Assembly: GCF_000027125.1 (NCBI RefSeq)
Contig: NC_017626.1
DNA from: Escherichia coli 042
GTDB lineage: Bacteria > Pseudomonadota > Gammaproteobacteria > Enterobacterales > Enterobacteriaceae
Direction: 5' to 3' (one strand)
Length of the DNA stretch: 64,000 bases
In this document: positions 2,466 to 27,283 of the stretch, in pieces
Position numbering within the stretch: position 1 is the stretch's first letter
How the letters are laid out: each line of letters opens with the position of its first letter
Notes under the pieces: generated by a model
Told to the model about the DNA's origin: nothing
Seen by the model: only the letters and a program-made list of their open reading frames with translations
Databases searched by the model: none
Made by a program: the position numbers and the translations under genes

Positions 2466-2706
2466 TAAGAATTTCTTTACTGACAGGGTGAGCAGGGCGC
2501 TTTTATCCTGTCAGTTCGTTTTACTCACTTCATCCGGTGTATATACCCTTCTCGACAGTTCTTTAACGCCACTATACCCCTCACAGAGCGCTTTTACAGT
2601 GACGTTGACTTGTGACCTGTAAAGTACAATATCGCTGTGTGTAGGCGTTATACATCGCCGTAAATATGATGAAGGCAAATGCTGTCGGTTTATGGGAAAG
2701 TTGCTT

Positions 2707-2748
2707 TGGGTAAAAAAAACGGCCCCAGAAGGGACCGTTTATGTTGCC
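2707..2748 (-). terminator. intrinsic terminator downstream of adhE
   Basis: hairpin followed by T-run on minus strand immediately 3' of adhE stop. Confidence 0.5.
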
Positions 2749-2763
2749 AGACAGCGCTACTGA

Positions 2764-5439
2764 TTAAGCGGATTTCTTCGCTTTTTTCTCAGCTTTAGCC
2801 GGAGCGGCTTCTTTTTTCGCTGCAGTTTCACCTTCTACATAATCACGACCGTAGTAGGTATCCAGCAGAATCTGTTTCAGCTCGGAGATCAGTGGGTAAC
2901 GCGGGTTAGCGCCGGTGCACTGGTCATCGAATGCATCTTCAGACAGTTTATCCACATTCGCCAGGAAGTCTGCTTCCTGAACGCCAGCTTCACGGATAGA
3001 TTTCGGAATACCCAATTCAGCTTTCAGCGTTTCCAGCCATGCCAGCAGTTTCTCGATCTTAGCAGCAGTACGGTCGCCCGGTGCGCTCAGACCCAGGTGG
3101 TCAGCAATTTCAGCATAACGACGGCGAGCCTGCGGACGGTCATACTGGCTGAATGCAGTCTGCTTGGTCGGGTTGTCGTTCGCGTTGTAGCGAATAACGT
3201 TACAAATCAGCAGGGCGTTTGCCAGACCGTGCGGAATATGGAACTGGGAACCCAGTTTGTGCGCCATTGAGTGACATACACCCAGGAAGGCGTTCGCAAA
3301 CGCGATACCCGCGATAGTTGCTGCACTGTGAACACGTTCACGCGCTACCGGATTTTTAGATCCTTCGTGGTAGGACGCTGGCAGATATTCTTTCAGCAGT
3401 TTCAGCGCCTGCAGAGCCTGACCATCAGAGAACTCAGATGCCAGTACAGAAACATAAGCTTCCATGGCGTGAGTTACTGCGTCCAGACCACCGAAAGCAC
3501 ACAGGGACTTCGGCATGTCCATAACCAGGTTGGCATCGACAATCGCCATATCCGGGGTCAGCGCATAGTCTGCCAGCGGATATTTCTGACCAGTAGCGTC
3601 GTCAGTTACAACCGCAAACGGAGTGACTTCAGAACCTGTACCAGAAGTGGTGGTGACAGCGATCATTTTCGCTTTCACGCCCATTTTCGGGAACTTGTAG
3701 ATACGTTTACGGATATCCATAAAGCGCAGCGCCAGTTCTTCGAAGTGAGTTTCCGGATGTTCGTACATGACCCACATGATCTTCGCGGCGTCCATCGGGG
3801 AACCACCACCCAGCGCGATAATCACGTCTGGTTTGAAGGAGTTTGCCAGTTCTGCACCTTTACGAACGATGCTCAGGGTCGGGTCAGCTTCTACTTCGAA
3901 GAAGACTTCAGTTTCAACGCCTGCTGCTTTCAGTACGGAAGTGATCTGATCAGCATAACCATTGTTGAACAGGAAGCGGTCAGTCACGATGAGCGCACGT
4001 TTGTGGCCATCAGTAATCACTTCATCCAGCGCGATTGGCAGGGAGCCACGGCGGAAGTAGATAGATTTCGGAAGTTTGTGCCACAACATGTTTTCAGCTC
4101 GCTTAGCAACGGTTTTCTTGTTGATCAGGTGTTTCGGACCAACGTTTTCAGAGATGGAGTTACCACCCCAGGAACCACAACCCAGAGTCAGGGAAGGTGC
4201 GAGTTTGAAGTTATACAGGTCACCGATACCACCCTGAGAAGCCGGGGTGTTAATCAGGATACGAGCCGTTTTCATTTTCTGACCGAAGTAAGAAACGCGA
4301 GCCGGTTGGTTATCCTGGTCAGTGTACAGGCAAGAGGTATGACCGATACCGCCCATAGCAACCAGTTTCTCTGCTTTTTCTACCGCGTCTTCGAAATCTT
4401 TAGCGCGGTACATTGCCAGAGTCGGGGACAGTTTTTCATGTGCGAACGGTTCGCTTTCATCAACAACGGTCACTTCACCGATCAGAATCTTGGTGTTTTC
4501 TGGTACAGAGAAGCCTGCCAGTTCAGCAATTTTATAGGCTGGCTGACCAACGATAGCCGCGTTCAGCGCACCGTTTTTCAGGATAACGTCCTGAACAGCT
4601 TTCAGCTCTTTACCCTGCAACAGATAGCCGCCGTGGGTTGCGAAACGTTCACGTACTGCGTCATAAACAGAGTCAACAACAACAACAGACTGTTCAGAAG
4701 CACAGATTACGCCGTTGTCGAAGGTTTTGGACATCAGTACAGATGCAACTGCACGTTTGATATCAGCAGTTTCATCGATAACAACTGGAGTGTTGCCCGC
4801 GCCTACACCGATAGCTGGTTTACCGGAGCTGTATGCGGCTTTAACCATGCCCGGACCACCAGTCGCGAGGATCAGGTTGATGTCTGGGTGGTGCATCAGT
4901 GCGTTAGACAGTTCAACAGAAGGTTGATCGATCCAGCCGATCAGATCTTTCGGAGCACCGGCAGCGATAGCAGCCTGCAGAACGATATCAGCTGCTTTGT
5001 TGGTGGCATCTTTTGCTCGCGGGTGCGGGGAGAAGATAATGGCGTTACGGGTCTTCAGGCTGATCAGCGATTTGAAGATAGCAGTTGAAGTCGGGTTAGT
5101 GGTCGGAACGATACCGCAAATAATACCGATTGGTTCAGCGATAGTGATGGTACCAAAAGTGTCGTCTTCAGACAGAACACCACAGGTTTTTTCATCTTTA
5201 TAGGCGTTATAGATATATTCAGAAGCAAAGTGGTTTTTGATCACTTTATCTTCGACGATACCCATGCCGGATTCGGCAACGGCCATTTTCGCGAGTGGGA
5301 TTCGAGCATCTGCAGCAGCCAGAGCGGCGGCGCGGAAGATTTTGTCTACTTGCTCTTGAGTGAAACTGGCATATTCACGCTGGGCTTTTTTTACACGCTC
5401 TACGAGTGCGTTAAGTTCAGCGACATTAGTAACAGCCAT
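2764..5439 (-). CDS. adhE: bifunctional aldehyde/alcohol dehydrogenase AdhE (891 aa)
   Basis: 891-aa ORF, recognisable AdhE sequence. Confidence 0.97.
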
Positions 5440-25194: not shown

Positions 25195-25752
25195 TCAACA
25201 ATGAATTTTTAGCAATTGCTCCACAGTCATATTTTTAATTGCGCTCCGGTTTACAAGAGTCCATCCTTGTTTCTCCAGATAAAACCGGAAGGTATCCAGG
25301 GTGCAGACCATTGCGCCGTCAGGAACGGTTTCAGTGAATTTGATATTGCCGTGTTCGTCGAGACGGATAACCAGGGTGCGTCCGTCCCCGTGAATCATTT
25401 TGTCGGGAGACGGGGCGTTATTCTGGCGCAGTTCTGCTTCCATGCGGTCGAACTCAGCAATGTATGCCTCTTTAAATGCAGCGGCTTTTTTGCCAGTGAA
25501 GCCCATCACCAGGAAAACGAAGCCGTTTTTGGTGATTTGGTACATTGGGAGTTTGCGCCCGGTTGAGTCGGTGTATTCGCTTGACACAAAATTGTGCTCA
25601 GTGAATTTTGCTGAACAGTCCAGATTGCGAATTTTATCCAACACTCGTTCGTGGCGTTTGCCAAAGAACTCGGCGATCGCAACAGACGTAGTGACAGCGC
25701 GACCATTTTCGATGGTTACGTCAGGGTGAGAAAGGGTAAGGATAGTAGCCAT
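25195..25752 (-). CDS. rha: Rha-family phage regulatory protein (185 aa; internal ATG of listed 284-aa ORF)
   Basis: N-terminus TSVAIAEFFGKRHERVLDKIRNL...YQITKNGFVFLVMGFTGKKAAAFKEAYIAEFDRME typical of Rha domain; GGAGG 8 nt upstream of ATG at 25752. Confidence 0.8.
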   Translation of the reverse strand: MATILTLSHPDVTIENGRAVTTSVAIAEFFGKRHERVLDKIRNLDCSAKFTEHNFVSSEYTDSTGRKLPMYQITKNGFVFLVMGFTGKKAAAFKEAYIAEFDRMEAELRQNNAPSPDKMIHGDGRTLVIRLDEHGNIKFTETVPDGAMVCTLDTFRFYLEKQGWTLVNRSAIKNMTVEQLLKIHC

Positions 25753-25921
25753 GATGGCAGCCTCCGCGATGAATTTGATTAACTCACCACCGAGGTTTTC
25801 CACGACCATAAGGGTGGTGAGACGTACAGGGGTGGAAATACCGGTCATCACGGAACCCGGCCAGCCTTGCGGCTGCCCTGCACGCCCCACCATAATGCGA
25901 ATGTGGCTGTGCTTAACGCAT

Positions 25922-25946
25922 AAAAAAACCGCCTGAGCGCGGTTAT
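25922..25946 (-). terminator. intrinsic terminator on minus strand upstream of rha (tL-like)
   Basis: hairpin aaccgc gctcag gcggtt followed by T7 on minus strand. Confidence 0.5.
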
Positions 25947-26621
25947 GCGCCGTGAATGATTTCGGGTTTCCACGCCCGGCACCCGTTTTATGAGGTGCAG
26001 GTGCACTATAATTCCACCCGTTCTGGTTTTCAATAGCTACATTCAACATTTTCTCTACCTTTCATCACCGAAGTGAACTTTGTTGATGCGGTGCCTGGTG
26101 CCTCCAGGTGACGTTAACCAGTTAACAATTAACGTCGGATACAGAGCATTCCCGTTACGCCCGTAAAAGACCGCTTGTTTTAACTGTTCCGCGTGCGCTG
26201 AGCCGCATTCACCGCATCACAAAATTCACTTTAAAAAGGGCGGCAGAGCAGTCACGGAGTAGAACTGATACCGCCAAAAGTCACCAGAAAATTGATAACA
26301 GAGGGCGTTGCAGCGGAGTTGTCACTTAAGCGTATGGTCAACCTGACAACCCGGTGTCCTCAGCGGGGAAGGAATAACCCCGCCATACTTACCGCCGCGC
26401 CATTTCGCGGATTGCCACAACCGGAAGCGCACGGTCGAACTAAATTTAACGACACCGTACAGAGAGACCAATTTCGCCGTGCGCTTTCGCGTTATGCCCT
26501 GACTTTTCAGGGACATATCCTTTCAGTAAACTGTCAGTGCCGGATGCTCACCCGTGTCCGGCGCACGCACTCCACCTGACCCGTGGAGAACTCCTTAATT
26601 ACCAACCCTCAGGAGGGTGAA

Positions 26622-26900
26622 ATGGATAAAAAGCAAATTGAGGCCCTGCAATCTATTATTGAAAAACAAGATGAAGCTATCAGGATTCTTTCATATCGCA
26701 CTGATATGATACTAAATATGCTTTCTGCATTAACGGCTGCGCTTGGTGGTACAAAAACAAACGTATACCGCGAAGTTGTTATTCAACAGATAGATAAATT
26801 TGAAAAAACCATACCAGGTATTAATGCTCATCTTGCAGAACAAGAGAAAGACCATGCTCTTATGGCAATTTCTTCAGTAGCTCTCCCGAAAGTTGAGTAG
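26622..26900 (+). CDS. hypothetical coiled-coil protein (92 aa), opposite orientation to the leftward operon
   Basis: ATG with AGGAGG Shine-Dalgarno; AT-rich. Confidence 0.55.
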   Translation: MDKKQIEALQSIIEKQDEAIRILSYRTDMILNMLSALTAALGGTKTNVYREVVIQQIDKFEKTIPGINAHLAEQEKDHALMAISSVALPKVE

Positions 26901-27261
26901 TTTTAATTGTTGTTTTGAAATAATCACTGCTTTCACATTTGAGTGATTTCATGGCAATCCAAATGCGGGCCACTGTGCCTGCATTTGGTTCCAGTTGCTG
27001 TAGACGTTTTGCGTCTTCCAAAAGTAAGGCGATAATGTGTTTCAGCTTCTCATCATTTGCTTGATTCTTGTTTTCAGGCGAATTCTGTCCGCCGAATAGG
27101 CGCTTCTCTTCATACAGACCTATAAAGGCACGACGCACGTTACCGGATATAGTATCGATGGTTTCCTTTTCTACAGTACTCAGGTCAAGAGTCGCCAGTT
27201 GAGAGCGAACCACATTCGCTGCCATTTCCTGGAATGGCATTGGTAAATCTTTAAATTCCAT
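26860..27261 (-). CDS. hypothetical protein (133 aa)
   Basis: ORF with GAGG Shine-Dalgarno; 3' end overlaps the convergent 92-aa gene by 41 nt. Confidence 0.55.
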   Translation of the reverse strand: MEFKDLPMPFQEMAANVVRSQLATLDLSTVEKETIDTISGNVRRAFIGLYEEKRLFGGQNSPENKNQANDEKLKHIIALLLEDAKRLQQLEPNAGTVARIWIAMKSLKCESSDYFKTTIKTTQLSGELLKKLP

Positions 27262-27283
27262 TATTAGCCTCGTTGGTTAGCTA

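What the first reader, a model, noticed from the sequence alone, without database searches (positions are those of the whole stretch)
25753..26621. About 870-bp ORF-free, GC-balanced, hairpin-rich region upstream of rha
Between the Rha start (25752, strong GGAGG) and the divergent 92-aa gene (26622) no reading frame encodes a convincing protein, yet the region is not AT-rich like typical promoter DNA. It contains several stable inverted repeats (aaccgc...gcggtt terminator at 25928-25945; CCTGGtgcctCCAGG; GACGTTAAccagTTAACaaTTAACGTC; a long-range pair aagcgcacgg / ccgtgcgctt about 40 nt apart near 26425-26490; gtgccgga...tccggcgcac). The in-frame 99-codon stop-free stretch 5' of the Rha start has odd composition and no RBS. 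This could be a long structured non-coding RNA or leader (antitermination or processing sites), or a decayed gene.
Basis: seen in the sequence. Interest (0 to 1): 0.5.

Follow-up and report, generated by a model that had tools for sequence, protein, structure and literature searches.

The report
Prophage small-RNA cluster upstream of rha
The "empty" 870 bases are the minus-strand, RNA-only middle of a prophage early operon, holding three already catalogued small RNAs (DicF, IsrK, C4) that control cell division and an antirepressor, plus a conserved folded RNA domain in front of DicF that is absent from Rfam and from the papers I could search.

Summary
Window 25753-26621 has no convincing protein gene, is 52.6% GC, and as minus-strand RNA folds far better than shuffles (z = -5.3). 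Everything reads on the minus strand.

Rfam matches above gathering score:
- DicF, 26289-26238
- IsrK, 25998-25922, with a promoter-like site placing the start at its first base, and its own terminator
- C4 antisense RNA, 25897-25810

Positions 26607-26074 are 90% identical to the ydfC-dicF-dicB spacer of E. coli K-12 prophage Qin.

Positions 26073-25210 are an inserted cassette built like the P1 immI region and the Gifsy-1 isrK locus. The C4 loops pair with sites in IsrK and with sites in front of rha, one overlapping the rha ribosome-binding site. In five other alleles these loops and sites co-vary.

The 99-codon stretch is the DNA of IsrK and C4. PGAP and Pfam (Phage_ASH) read it as protein.

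One part is not catalogued: a ~137-nt domain (26434-26298), the 5' part of the DicF precursor. It is a four-way junction with a probable pseudoknot, supported by covariation, also found in P1/P7 ban leaders and lambdoid early-left leaders, with no Rfam match. Its function is unknown.

The parts
26435..26607 (-). 5' part of the untranslated spacer, homologous to the Qin ydfC-dicF spacer. It contains local hairpins, including 26538-26566 and about 26494-26512. At 26608 it abuts a 656-bp insertion carrying the 133-aa and 92-aa genes.
   Evidence: blastn against K-12 Qin: window 26607-26074 equals locus 2563-3092 at 90% identity; alignment; fold.
26422..26489 (-). Long-range stem (CGAAAGCGCACGG / CCGUGCGCUUCCG) enclosing a variable loop. 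Its position matches the RNase III site that creates the 5' end of the 190-nt DicF precursor, expected near 26426-26427.
   Evidence: Inverted repeat I1, 13 nt, 92% complementary. The 190-nt RNase III-dependent species in K-12 is published (PMC10448788). Counting 190 nt back from the DicF 3' end lands in the 3' arm. The stem is kept in K-12 through a G-U change while the loop differs.
26298..26434 (-). Conserved structured domain of the DicF precursor. Helices: P0 GUUGUGGC/GCUGCAAC closing a four-way junction, P1 CCGCG/CGCGG, P2 CGGU/ACCG holding the variable hairpin P3, and P4 GUUGUCA/UGACAAC. A probable pseudoknot pairs GUAUGG with CCAUAC. Function unknown.
   Evidence: Alignment A4 of 23 copies: 94.5% of cells paired; 11 pairs changed on both sides against 3.3 +/- 1.4 in shuffles (0/500); slid controls at most 56% paired. 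The same pattern holds on 24 copies including Citrobacter, Trabulsiella and Izhakiella. Covariance model R1 scores 161 bits here. No Rfam match at E <= 10.
26238..26289 (-). DicF small RNA (antisense regulator of ftsZ), with an intrinsic terminator whose U-run extends to about 26233.
   Evidence: Rfam RF00039, 71.5 bits (gathering score 48), model positions 1-52 of 52. 50 of 52 bases identical to K-12 dicF.
26074..26237 (-). Remnant of the Qin dicF-dicB spacer (the dicB 5' leader in K-12). It carries a bi-allelic variable patch and two conserved hairpins: GACGUUAA..UUAACGUC at 26110-26136 and CCUGG..CCAGG at 26094-26108.
   Evidence: Homology to Qin runs up to 18 nt before the K-12 dicB start and breaks at 26074. 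Sub-threshold STnc100 match, 35.6 bits against 47. PGAP's 'partial DicB' here translates to a peptide unlike DicB.
26005..26033 (-). Promoter-like site for IsrK (TTGAAA, 17-nt spacer, TATAGT), placing the transcript start at about 25998.
   Evidence: Consensus scan, 10 of 12 matches. -35-like and -10-like hexamers sit at the same distance from the IsrK 5' end in five other alleles although the sequence differs.
25922..25998 (-). IsrK small RNA. It carries the upstream C4 target copies a1 (GUGGAAA, 25967-25973) and b1 (AUCAUUCACGG, 25950-25960) and an intrinsic terminator (stem 25927-25944 plus U7).
   Evidence: Rfam RF01394, 67.7 bits (gathering score 50), model positions 1-77 of 77. Terminator scan. 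Overlapping c4-a1b1 match of 25.7 bits, below its gathering score. Duplexes with the C4 loops of -13.8 and -8.9 kcal/mol.
25810..25897 (-). C4-type antisense RNA: a 17-bp closing stem and two inner hairpins. b' (CCGUGAUGA, 25845-25853) lies in the second loop and a' (UUUCCAC, 25832-25838) in the single-stranded stretch. An AUG at 25891-25893 inside its 5' stem opens a 47-codon frame that runs into rha without a stop.
   Evidence: Rfam RF01695, 81.9 bits (gathering score 45), model positions 1-87 of 87. Fold of -47.3 kcal/mol with the same architecture as P1 c4. The frame was read from the sequence.
25753..25809 (-). rha leader with C4 targets a2 (GUGGAAA, 25797-25803) and b2 (UCAUCGCGG, 25764-25772). 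b2 overlaps the ribosome-binding site GGAGG (25761-25765). GGUGGUGAG (25783-25791) can pair instead with the 3' strand of the C4 stem.
   Evidence: Duplexes: b' with b2 -19.3 kcal/mol, covering the ribosome-binding site; a' with a2 -9.1 kcal/mol. Inverted repeat I3. a'/b' co-vary with a1/b1 and a2/b2 across five further alleles.
25195..25752 (-). rha (185 aa), a Rha-family antirepressor-type regulator and the gene controlled by the cassette. It lies outside the finding's coordinates.
   Evidence: Pfam PF09669 Phage_pRha, E = 2e-30, at residues 120-204 of the 284-aa ORF. PHROGs label it Rha-like regulator or anti-repressor.

Best explanation
The region is the untranslated, small-RNA-dense middle of the prophage's repressor-controlled early-left operon (the dicBF type). 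It is read on the minus strand and made of two joined modules.

Module 1 (26607-26074) is the Qin-type DicF unit.
- A transcript coming from upstream, through ydfABC and the inserted 133-aa gene, is cut by RNase III in the long-range stem near 26426. This releases a ~190-nt precursor made of a conserved folded domain plus DicF.
- RNase E then frees the 53-nt DicF, which ends at its own terminator and represses ftsZ and other host mRNAs.
- These processing steps are inferred from 90% identity to the K-12 locus, where they were shown by experiment.

Module 2 (26073-25753) is an antisense-RNA switch of the P1 immI / Gifsy-1 isrK type, inserted between dicF and dicB.
- A promoter starts IsrK at about 25998. 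Most transcripts stop at the IsrK terminator.
- Read-through transcripts, and transcripts from upstream, carry C4 and rha.
- C4 pairs through its loop b' and single strand a' with b2 and a2 in the rha leader. This covers the ribosome-binding site and keeps the antirepressor-type protein Rha untranslated.
- IsrK carries decoy copies a1 and b1. By titrating C4 or refolding the long RNA it turns rha translation on, as published for Gifsy-1.
- This mechanism is inferred from complementarity and co-variation. It has not been shown for this locus.

For the conserved domain in front of DicF, I think a maturation or stability scaffold and Hfq-binding 5' domain shared by a family of DicF-like RNAs with variable seeds is the most likely role. 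That part is a guess.
For: Rfam matches:
- Three matches above gathering score, all on the minus strand and all full length.

Promoter and terminator:
- A promoter-like site places +1 at the first base of IsrK, and the terminator sits at its end.
- The promoter geometry is kept in five other alleles.

Module 1:
- Window 26607-26074 is 90% identical to the K-12 ydfC-dicF-dicB spacer. ydfABC lies upstream at 96% identity and dicB downstream at 80%.
- 190 nt back from the DicF 3' end falls in the 3' arm of inverted repeat I1.

Module 2:
- The C4 architecture and the order a1 b1 - c4 - a2 b2 are the same as in annotated P1.
- The b':b2 duplex is -19.3 kcal/mol and covers GGAGG.
- In mEp460, ST64B, Stx1_14040, PhiR49_2 and Stx2_131990 the a' and b' sequences differ, and a1, b1, a2 and b2 differ in step. 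b2 always abuts the ribosome-binding site.
- In a cross-allele duplex matrix the cognate pair is the lowest in every row.
- The Gifsy-1 isrK-orf45-anrP mechanism is published (PMC4825925). The window's AUG at transcript position 106 matches the first AUG of orf45 (A107).

Overall:
- Rha carries Pfam Phage_pRha.
- The full composite is present in 314 of 5426 complete E. coli genomes.
- The whole region folds with z = -5.3.
Against: - No expression, end-mapping or processing data exist for this locus. The promoter and terminator are pattern matches.
- In the window's own allele b1 pairs with a bulged U and b2 needs one G-U pair.
- The c4-a1b1 Rfam match is below its gathering score (25.7 against 46.7 bits).
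- The duplex matrix is noisy: for ST64B and PhiR49_2 the cognate pair beats the next best by less than 1 kcal/mol.
- Rha's antirepressor role is taken from family labels and from AnrP of Gifsy-1. Its target repressor here is unknown.
- The P1 model (C4 represses) and the Gifsy-1 model (IsrK activates through refolding) have never been reconciled by experiment.
- The reading frame in phase with rha is stop-free across IsrK and C4 in all alleles examined, and matches Pfam Phage_ASH. Some translation of this DNA cannot be excluded.
- The function I assign to the conserved domain has no direct support.
Confidence: 0.85

Rival explanations
1. The 99 codons upstream of the Rha start (26049-25753) are genuine coding sequence: an N-terminal 'Ash' domain of a 284-aa Rha, as annotated by PGAP. 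On this view the RNA-family matches are secondary.
For: - PGAP annotates 284-aa Rha proteins in all the best-matching genomes.
- Pfam PF10554 Phage_ASH matches residues 14-109 with E = 3.5e-16. PHROGs 995, 821 and 6928 match the 99 residues on their own.
- The frame is stop-free over IsrK through rha in all 7 sequences examined, and the two length differences are multiples of 3.
- In mEp460, ST64B, WGPS2 and cdtI the annotated ORF starts a further ~360 nt upstream.
- An AAAGG sequence lies 9 nt before the ATG at 26049.
Against: - The stretch contains a promoter-like site with conserved geometry, a full-length IsrK match, an intrinsic terminator with U7 and a full-length C4 match.
- The 'conserved residues' coincide with RNA elements: HNRAxAVFL is the terminator and IMVGRAG is the C4 5' stem.
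- Variation between alleles is concentrated in the a and b sites and is compensatory at the RNA level, not synonymous at the codon level.
- The translated sequence further upstream in mEp460 and ST64B differs by many non-conservative changes.
- In Gifsy-1 only a 45-codon uORF starting inside C4 is translated (PMC4825925).
Confidence: 0.1
2. Only the distal part is translated. The AUG at 25893 inside C4 opens a Gifsy-1 orf45-like upstream frame which, lacking a stop here, yields an N-terminally extended 232-aa Rha alongside the 185-aa form, like the in-frame Ant1/Ant2 pair of P1. This is a refinement of the best explanation rather than an alternative.
For: - The AUG lies at transcript position 106-108, matching orf45's first AUG at A107. 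orf45 translation and its coupling to anrP were shown by experiment.
- 47 codons run in frame with rha without a stop.
- P1 annotates in-frame ant1 and ant2.
Against: - No ribosome-binding site precedes 25893.
- The AUG is buried in the 17-bp C4 stem.
- The strong GGAGG serves the AUG at 25752.
- I did not read the Gifsy-1 sequence itself, so the fused-versus-separate contrast rests on the paper's description.
Confidence: 0.35
3. The conserved domain 26434-26298 is a cis-acting processive antiterminator (put-like in function). It would modify RNA polymerase so that it reads through the DicF and IsrK terminators into rha, dicB and recE.
For: - The domain always lies in a repressor-controlled early operon. 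In P1/P7 it begins about 25 nt after the C1-controlled Pban -10; elsewhere it is in lambdoid early-left leaders.
- An intrinsic terminator always follows within about 40-110 nt, ahead of genes that must be expressed.
- The unpaired nucleotides are invariant, which suggests binding to a conserved host machine.
- cdtI and F1055 show no N-like first gene after the domain.
- Both terminated and read-through dicBF transcripts exist in K-12.
Against: - No sequence or covariance-model similarity to HK022 putL or putR, beyond one shared 9-mer.
- The architecture differs: a four-way junction with a pseudoknot, against two stem-loops.
- In Qin-type operons it lies about 0.8 kb (K-12) or about 1.5 kb (this window) from the promoter, and in cdtI about 270 nt.
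- There is a single copy per genome, with none on the PR side.
- The RNA accumulates as a discrete 190-nt species cut off by RNase III, which fits a small-RNA precursor.
Confidence: 0.2
4. The region is a decayed or frameshifted protein gene.
For: - PGAP places a 'partial DicB' pseudogene at the equivalent of about 26079-26162 in some genomes.
- There are stop-free stretches of 64-99 codons.
Against: - The 'partial DicB' peptide (VLWVDSLYPALIVNWLTSPGGTRHRINK) is unlike DicB and is a translation of the dicB leader.
- The 95-aa ORF has no PHROG match.
- The same spacer is non-coding in K-12.
- The variation pattern is compensatory for RNA helices.
Confidence: 0.03
5. The region is a divergent promoter-operator between rha and the 92-aa gene, with the palindromes acting as protein-binding DNA sites.
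For: - The two flanking genes diverge.
- GACGTTAA-N11-TTAACGTC is a perfect DNA palindrome.
Against: - The region is internal to an operon that is transcribed through in K-12.
- Its hairpins lie in catalogued RNAs.
- No consensus + strand promoter for the 92-aa gene was found.
- rha has its own upstream promoter-like site at 26033-26005.
Confidence: 0.04

Closest known systems
Qin (Kim) cryptic prophage dicBF operon of E. coli K-12 (ydfA-ydfB-ydfC-dicF-dicB-ydfD)
   Same: - Same gene order, with high identity: ydfABC 96%, the spacer with dicF 90%, dicB 80%.
- DicF is identical at 50 of 52 bases.
- The same RNase III stem and 190-nt precursor region.
- A repressor-controlled early-left operon.
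   Different: The window has two insertions relative to Qin:
- a 656-bp low-GC segment with a 133-aa gene and an opposite-strand 92-aa gene, between ydfC and the dicF leader;
- the 864-bp IsrK-C4-rha cassette, between the dicF-dicB spacer and dicB.

Two short patches are replaced by alternative alleles.
immI region of phages P1 and P7 (c4 antisense RNA - icd - ant1/ant2)
   Same: - Same RNA fold, with b' in the second hairpin loop and a' in the single strand.
- Same order a1 b1 - c4 - a2 b2, and a similar a2-b2 spacing (24 nt against 22 nt).
- b2 overlaps the ribosome-binding site of the first downstream frame.
- The controlled gene is an antirepressor-type regulator.
- Specificity alleles differ in a/b, as P1 and P7 do.
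   Different: - There is no icd gene. b2 covers the ribosome-binding site of rha itself.
- The regulator is Rha family (PF09669). I did not test it for similarity to P1 Ant.
- a1 and b1 lie in a separately terminated small RNA (IsrK).
- The cassette sits inside a lambdoid early-left operon.
- No C1-type operator was identified at the promoter.
Gifsy-1 isrK - orf45 (STnc1160) - anrP locus of Salmonella (Hershko-Shalev et al. 2016, PMC4825925)
   Same: - An IsrK family match, with its own promoter and a leaky terminator.
- A processed RNA downstream, which here matches C4.
- A first AUG about 106-107 nt into the transcript.
- A downstream antirepressor-like gene.
- Pairing of the middle of IsrK with the downstream RNA. 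This corresponds to a1/b1 pairing with a'/b'.
   Different: - The upstream frame is not closed by a stop codon here. It runs in frame into rha.
- The neighbours differ: dicF and dicB here, against antQ and isrJ in Gifsy-1.
- I did not align the Gifsy-1 sequence itself.
P4 immunity (CI RNA with seqA / seqB / seqC)
   Same: Both have a processed antisense RNA flanked by upstream and downstream target copies. Pfam's Phage_ASH family matches the window's IsrK/C4 DNA. Its association with P4 is from my own knowledge, not tested here.
   Different: P4 CI acts by transcription termination. Here, as in P1, the target overlaps a ribosome-binding site. P4 was not analysed here beyond one 45-nt blast match.
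HK022 putL / putR antiterminator RNAs (comparison for the conserved domain 26434-26298 only)
   Same: Both are cis-encoded structured RNAs in the leaders of repressor-controlled early operons of phages without a recognisable N, located upstream of terminators.
   Different: - No detectable homology by blastn or covariance model.
- put is two stem-loops of about 70 nt. This domain is about 125-137 nt with four helices and a pseudoknot.
- There is one copy per genome.
- It is released as part of a 190-nt small-RNA precursor.

Membership tests
DicF RNA (Rfam RF00039) | Covariance-model score above the curated gathering score over the full model | tested here: met
   71.5 bits against 48, model positions 1-52 of 52, window 26289-26238 minus strand
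DicF RNA (Rfam RF00039) | Lies in the untranslated stretch of a dicBF-type operon, with ydfABC upstream and dicB downstream | tested here: met
   blastn against K-12 Qin and the RefSeq annotation of near-identical loci. dicB is displaced by the inserted rha cassette.
DicF RNA (Rfam RF00039) | Matured from a polycistronic RNA by RNase III (190 nt) and RNase E (53 nt) | not testable with these tools
   Only the homologous stem and spacing can be shown
C4 antisense RNA / P1 immI-type control (Rfam RF01695) | Covariance-model score above the gathering score over the full model | tested here: met
   81.9 bits against 45, model positions 1-87 of 87, window 25897-25810 minus strand
C4 antisense RNA / P1 immI-type control (Rfam RF01695) | Long closing stem enclosing two hairpins, with recognition sequences b' (loop) and a' (single strand) exposed | tested here: met
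   The minimum-free-energy fold of -47.3 kcal/mol has the same layout as P1 c4
C4 antisense RNA / P1 immI-type control (Rfam RF01695) | Downstream targets a2 and b2 complementary to a' and b', with b2 covering the ribosome-binding site of the controlled frame | tested here: met
   a2 at 25797-25803 and b2 at 25764-25772, overlapping GGAGG at 25761-25765. Duplexes of -9.1 and -19.3 kcal/mol.
C4 antisense RNA / P1 immI-type control (Rfam RF01695) | Upstream target copies a1 and b1 in the same transcript | tested here: met
   a1 at 25967-25973 and b1 at 25950-25960, inside IsrK. The Rfam c4-a1b1 model itself scores only 25.7 against 46.7, and b1 pairs with one bulge.
C4 antisense RNA / P1 immI-type control (Rfam RF01695) | Recognition sequences and targets change together between immunity types | tested here: met
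   Five further alleles have different a' and b' and matching a1, b1, a2 and b2. The cognate duplex is the lowest in each row of the matrix.
C4 antisense RNA / P1 immI-type control (Rfam RF01695) | An icd-like small frame between c4 and the antirepressor gene, translationally coupled to it | tested here: not met
   There is no separate frame. The only upstream frame starts inside C4 and is fused in frame to rha.
C4 antisense RNA / P1 immI-type control (Rfam RF01695) | C4 excised from the precursor by RNase P | not testable with these tools
   -
IsrK RNA (Rfam RF01394) / Gifsy-1 isrK locus | Covariance-model score above the gathering score over the full model | tested here: met
   67.7 bits against 50, model positions 1-77 of 77, window 25998-25922 minus strand
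IsrK RNA (Rfam RF01394) / Gifsy-1 isrK locus | Its own promoter at the 5' end and a leaky intrinsic terminator at the 3' end | tested here: inconclusive
   TTGAAA-17-TATAGT lies 6 nt before position 1, and there is a 6-bp stem plus U7. The geometry is conserved in other alleles. Activity and read-through were not measurable.
IsrK RNA (Rfam RF01394) / Gifsy-1 isrK locus | Followed by a short upstream frame (orf45) and an antirepressor-like gene | tested here: met
   The AUG at transcript position 106 matches A107 in Gifsy-1. It is followed by rha with Pfam Phage_pRha. Here the frame is fused to rha.
HK022 put antiterminator RNA (considered for 26434-26298) | Sequence or structure similarity to putL or putR (two stem-loops of about 70 nt) | tested here: not met
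   blastn finds only 9-mers. Model R1 finds nothing in the HK022 immunity region at E <= 10. The consensus structure is a four-way junction.
tRNA / tmRNA-like element (considered for 26434-26298) | Recognised by ARAGORN | tested here: not met
   No gene found in 25700-26700
Phage_ASH protein family (Pfam PF10554) | Profile match | tested here: met
   E = 3.5e-16, residues 14-109 of the 284-aa ORF
Phage_ASH protein family (Pfam PF10554) | The matched sequence is actually translated | tested here: inconclusive
   It overlaps a promoter-like site, a terminator and two RNA genes, and its variation is compensatory at the RNA level. The frame nevertheless stays open in all alleles.

The most novel reading that the evidence does not exclude
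The ~137-nt domain immediately 5' of DicF (26434-26298) may be an undescribed class of structured phage RNA.

- It is a pseudoknotted four-way junction with invariant loops.
- It is conserved from the P1/P7 ban-operon leader to lambdoid early-left operons in Escherichia, Salmonella, Citrobacter, Trabulsiella and Izhakiella.
- It is always followed by a hypervariable 'seed plus terminator' cassette, of which DicF is only one allele.

The most novel reading not excluded by my evidence is that it acts on a host machine. It could modify RNA polymerase for terminator read-through, as a put-independent RNA antiterminator in N-less phages. Or it could direct the precise maturation of a whole family of interchangeable prophage small RNAs.
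Probability: 0.2. Interest if true: 0.75.

Novelty: new member of a known kind. Interest (0 to 1): 0.4.

Why it matters
For the finding as given, the value is mainly corrective.

- A stretch that looks empty is packed with regulators, and its annotation is misleading. RefSeq extends Rha by 99 codons over two RNA genes, and Pfam holds a "protein" family that matches the same DNA.
- The locus places DicF (division and metabolism control) and an IsrK/C4 antirepressor switch (prophage induction control) next to each other in one operon. It recurs in about 6% of complete E. coli genomes.
- The set of alleles in which the C4 loops co-vary with both target pairs is a ready-made natural compensatory-mutation series. 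It links the P1 c4 model with the Gifsy-1 IsrK model.

The part that could matter more is the conserved domain of the 190-nt DicF precursor. It is more conserved than DicF itself, is shared with P1, has no Rfam family, and has no known function. It offers a concrete handle on how prophages make and exchange small-RNA cassettes, or on how N-less phages pass early terminators.

Tried and rejected
- **HK022 put homology for the conserved domain.** I located putL and putR in HK022 using the numbering of the cryo-EM paper. blastn gave only chance-level 9-mers, one of them (GCGCGGCGG) inside putL. Covariance model R1 found nothing in the HK022 immunity region at E <= 10. Rejected as homology; functional analogy remains open.
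- **tRNA-like element.** ARAGORN found nothing.
- **Second, PR-side copy of the domain.** None in the window or in the whole cdtI genome.
- **Other Rfam families in 26225-26625.** At E <= 10 only DicF appears.
- **AgvB/AsxR anti-sRNA family.** I considered it because some alleles carry CACAACA after the domain. Those RNAs map 3' of PR', not here. Dropped.
- **'Partial DicB' pseudogene.** An artefact.
- **Literature.** King 2011 on new put RNAs and Lobocka 2004 on the P1 genome are not held in the library. The only information I obtained on P1's 'dicF-like region' is its feature label. The put alignment of the 2022 paper is an image and could not be read.
- **STnc100.** I did not pursue the sub-threshold match (35.6 against 47 bits).
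- **Promoter for the 92-aa gene.** I did not look for a + strand promoter beyond the consensus scan.
Full report
**1. Observation**

The stretch 25753-26621 lies between the Rha start (ATG at 25752-25750 on the minus strand, behind GGAGG) and the ATG of a 92-aa + strand gene at 26622.

- It is 52.6% GC, against 50.0% for the window and 37-48% for the neighbouring genes.
- Folded as minus-strand RNA, the 869 nt give -347.2 kcal/mol, against -300.9 +/- 8.8 for shuffles (z = -5.26).
- The 95-aa + strand ORF matches no PHROG family.

The caveat is that PGAP and Pfam treat the 99 in-frame codons before the Rha start as coding.

**2. What is there**

Everything makes sense on the minus strand. Rfam gives three full-length matches above gathering score:

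| RNA | Coordinates (minus strand) | Score (bits) | Gathering score |
|---|---|---|---|
| DicF | 26289-26238 | 71.5 | 48 |
| IsrK | 25998-25922 | 67.7 | 50 |
| C4 antisense RNA | 25897-25810 | 81.9 | 45 |

Two matches fall below their gathering scores: c4-a1b1, which overlaps IsrK, and STnc100 at 26226-26079.

Comparison with K-12 prophage Qin shows how the region was assembled:

- Window 27855-27264 is ydfA-ydfB-ydfC, at 96% identity.
- Window 26607-26074 is the untranslated ydfC-dicF-dicB spacer, at 90% identity.
- Window 25209-25073 is dicB, at 80% identity.

So the window differs from Qin by two insertions. One is 27263-26608, carrying a 133-aa gene and the opposite-strand 92-aa gene, both low in GC. 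The other is 26073-25210, the IsrK-C4-rha cassette, dropped between the dicB leader and dicB. The finding's 869 nt are therefore about 534 nt of Qin-type DicF leader plus about 320 nt of the rha control cassette. The full composite occurs in 314 of 5426 complete E. coli genomes, and parts of it in 4751.

**3. The DicF half**

In K-12, DicF is cut from the polycistronic dicBF RNA. RNase III makes the 5' end of a 190-nt species and RNase E that of the 53-nt DicF (PMC10448788). An Hfq-enriched interval lies upstream of dicF (PMC4152368).

Counting 190 nt back from the DicF 3' end gives about 26426-26427. The stem is kept in K-12 through a G-U change, while its loop is replaced by a different sequence. 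I therefore read this pair as the RNase III stem. This is an inference from homology.

**4. A conserved domain in front of DicF**

The first ~130 nt of the 190-nt species recur without the rest of the Qin spacer in several contexts:

- about 270 nt downstream of a PL-like promoter in phage cdtI, in Stx2c phages, Ayreon, 2H10 and Salmonella phage F1055;
- after a DicA-type repressor gene in phage pPE4;
- about 25 nt after the -10 of the C1-controlled Pban promoter in P1, P7 and RCS47. P1's record labels the region only 'dicF-like region'.

It also found genomes of Escherichia albertii, Citrobacter, Trabulsiella and Izhakiella.

RNAalifold and manual inspection give the following structure:

- a closing helix P0 (GUUGUGGC / GCUGCAAC);
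- P1 (CCGCG / CGCGG);
- P2 (CGGU / ACCG), holding a variable hairpin P3;
- P4 (GUUGUCA / UGACAAC);
- a probable pseudoknot, GUAUGG with CCAUAC.

On 23 diverse copies, 94.5% of cells pair. Eleven pairs change on both sides, against 3.3 +/- 1.4 in shuffles (0 of 500), and slid controls reach at most 56% paired. A model-fitted alignment with the more distant genomes gives 12 pairs and 30 cells changed on both sides. That alignment leans towards the structure by construction. The pseudoknot rests on one compensatory pair (P1 phage) and one wobble, so it is only probable.

Rfam has nothing here at E <= 10, and ARAGORN sees no tRNA. Covariance model R1, built from these copies, finds no similarity to HK022 putL or putR and no second copy in the window or in cdtI.

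Downstream of the domain, the seed and the terminator hairpin are hypervariable. DicF is only one of many alleles. So the domain is more conserved than the small RNA it precedes.

Its function is unknown. I rank the possibilities as follows:

- a maturation, stability or Hfq-binding scaffold of a modular small-RNA family, because it is released as a discrete 190-nt RNA;
- terminator read-through, because it always sits between a repressor-controlled promoter and an intrinsic terminator, and the phages I checked lack an N-like gene.

**5. The rha half**

A promoter-like site (TTGAAA, 17 nt, TATAGT; 26033-26005) puts +1 at the first base of the IsrK match, and the IsrK match ends in the 25944-25927 terminator.

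C4 folds like P1 c4. In P1, b' sits in the second hairpin loop and a' in the following single strand, and the targets are ordered a1 b1 - c4 - a2 b2, with b2 at the icd ribosome-binding site. In the window the layout is:

| Element | Sequence | Coordinates | Location |
|---|---|---|---|
| b' | CCGUGAUGA | 25845-25853 | C4, second hairpin loop |
| a' | UUUCCAC | 25832-25838 | C4, single strand |
| a1 | GUGGAAA | 25967-25973 | IsrK |
| b1 | AUCAUUCACGG | 25950-25960 | IsrK |
| a2 | GUGGAAA | 25797-25803 | rha leader |
| b2 | UCAUCGCGG | 25764-25772 | rha leader |

b2 overlaps the rha ribosome-binding site GGAGG (25761-25765). The b':b2 duplex is -19.3 kcal/mol.

The strongest evidence comes from relatives at 67-77% identity: mEp460, ST64B, Stx1_14040, PhiR49_2 and Stx2_131990. 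All have full IsrK and C4 matches. In each, a' and b' differ and a1, b1, a2 and b2 differ in step. In mEp460, for example, b' is CUUUGGUGA and both b1 and b2 are UCACCAAAG. b2 always abuts the ribosome-binding site. In a cross-allele duplex matrix the cognate pair is the lowest in every row, though for two alleles the margin is under 1 kcal/mol.

This is the logic of P1/P7 immunity I. It also explains the Gifsy-1 result that short IsrK, acting in trans, opens a silent isrK-orf45-anrP RNA (PMC4825925). The 'middle of IsrK' that pairs with 'orf45' there corresponds to a1/b1 pairing with a'/b'. The downstream GGUGGUGAG (25783-25791) can replace the 5' strand of the C4 stem, which gives the alternative conformer described for Gifsy-1.

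**6. The 99-codon stretch**

The 284-aa ORF that PGAP calls Rha starts at 26049. It runs through the promoter-like site, IsrK, the terminator and C4. Pfam places Phage_ASH on residues 14-109 and Phage_pRha on residues 120-204.

The apparent protein conservation tracks RNA elements. The terminator encodes HNRAxAVFL, and the C4 5' stem encodes IMVGRAG. However, the frame in phase with rha is stop-free in all seven sequences, and the two length differences are multiples of three. Translation of orf45, from an AUG at the same transcript position as the window's 25893, was shown in Gifsy-1.

My reading is this. Initiation at 26049 is unlikely. Initiation at 25893 is plausible and, with no stop codon here, would give a 232-aa Rha in addition to the 185-aa form. 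This remains open.

**7. Verdict**

- The 'structured RNA with processing sites' idea is right in kind. But the region is a mosaic of catalogued small RNAs, not a new long RNA or a decayed gene.
- Identification of the parts is secure. The mechanism of the rha switch is well supported by co-variation but is not shown for this locus. The processing steps are inferred from K-12.
- The uncatalogued element is the conserved domain at 26434-26298.

Noticed in passing
window 25753-26049 (minus strand); also L132, L133, L136 and L149:36117-37265: Pfam PF10554 (Phage_ASH), several PHROGs and PGAP's long 'Rha' all correspond to the DNA of the IsrK promoter, IsrK, its terminator and C4. In mEp460, ST64B, WGPS2 and cdtI the annotated ORF even begins about 360 nt upstream of isrK. 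The frame stays open in every allele examined. It could be a protein family built on RNA genes, or real dual coding.
   Followed up: partly
window 26238-26297, and the equivalent stretch in L006, L012, L048, L073, L078, L089, L094, L119, L128 and L129: After the conserved leader domain, the single-stranded seed and the terminator hairpin are hypervariable between prophages. DicF is one allele of an exchangeable 'seed plus terminator' cassette. The targets of the other alleles are unknown.
   Followed up: partly
window about 26440-26475 and about 26140-26170: There are two short bi-allelic replacement patches: the loop of the RNase III stem, and a stretch after DicF. They reassort independently among the window, K-12 and two other E. 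coli strains.
   Followed up: no
window 26608-27263: A 656-bp low-GC (37-43%) insertion relative to Qin carries a 133-aa minus-strand gene (phrog_1363) and a 92-aa + strand gene (phrog_18692), both of unknown function. Their 3' ends overlap by 41 bp. The 92-aa gene is antisense to the early-left transcript, has a strong AGGAGG, and has no consensus promoter.
   Followed up: partly
window 26079-26162 (equivalent to L001:4327-4410): RefSeq annotates a 'partial DicB' pseudogene here in some genomes. The peptide is unlike DicB and is a translation of the dicB 5' leader.
   Followed up: yes
window 26422-26434 and the 5' flank of the domain in L006, L128 and L012: Directly 5' of helix P0 the sequence GUGC(G/U)CU(U/C) is nearly invariant. 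In the PL-leader copies it reads UGCUCUC, which resembles the boxA consensus (YGCUCUUUA, from my own knowledge). Not tested.
   Followed up: no
window 26171-26183 with 26231-26243: The 3' half and U-run of the DicF terminator can pair with UUAAAACAAGCGG 47 nt downstream (13 nt, 77% complementary). This is possibly related to the published RNase III-dependent 72-nt DicF 3' end.
   Followed up: no
window 26079-26226 (minus strand): A sub-threshold match to the Salmonella small RNA family STnc100 (35.6 against 47 bits) covers the dicF-dicB spacer with its two fully conserved hairpins.
   Followed up: no
L142, L144, L146, L147: The enterobacterial prophage domain also turns up on short contigs binned as Bacillota, Collinsella and Lachnospiraceae metagenome-assembled genomes. 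These are most likely mis-binned enterobacterial phage contigs.
   Followed up: no
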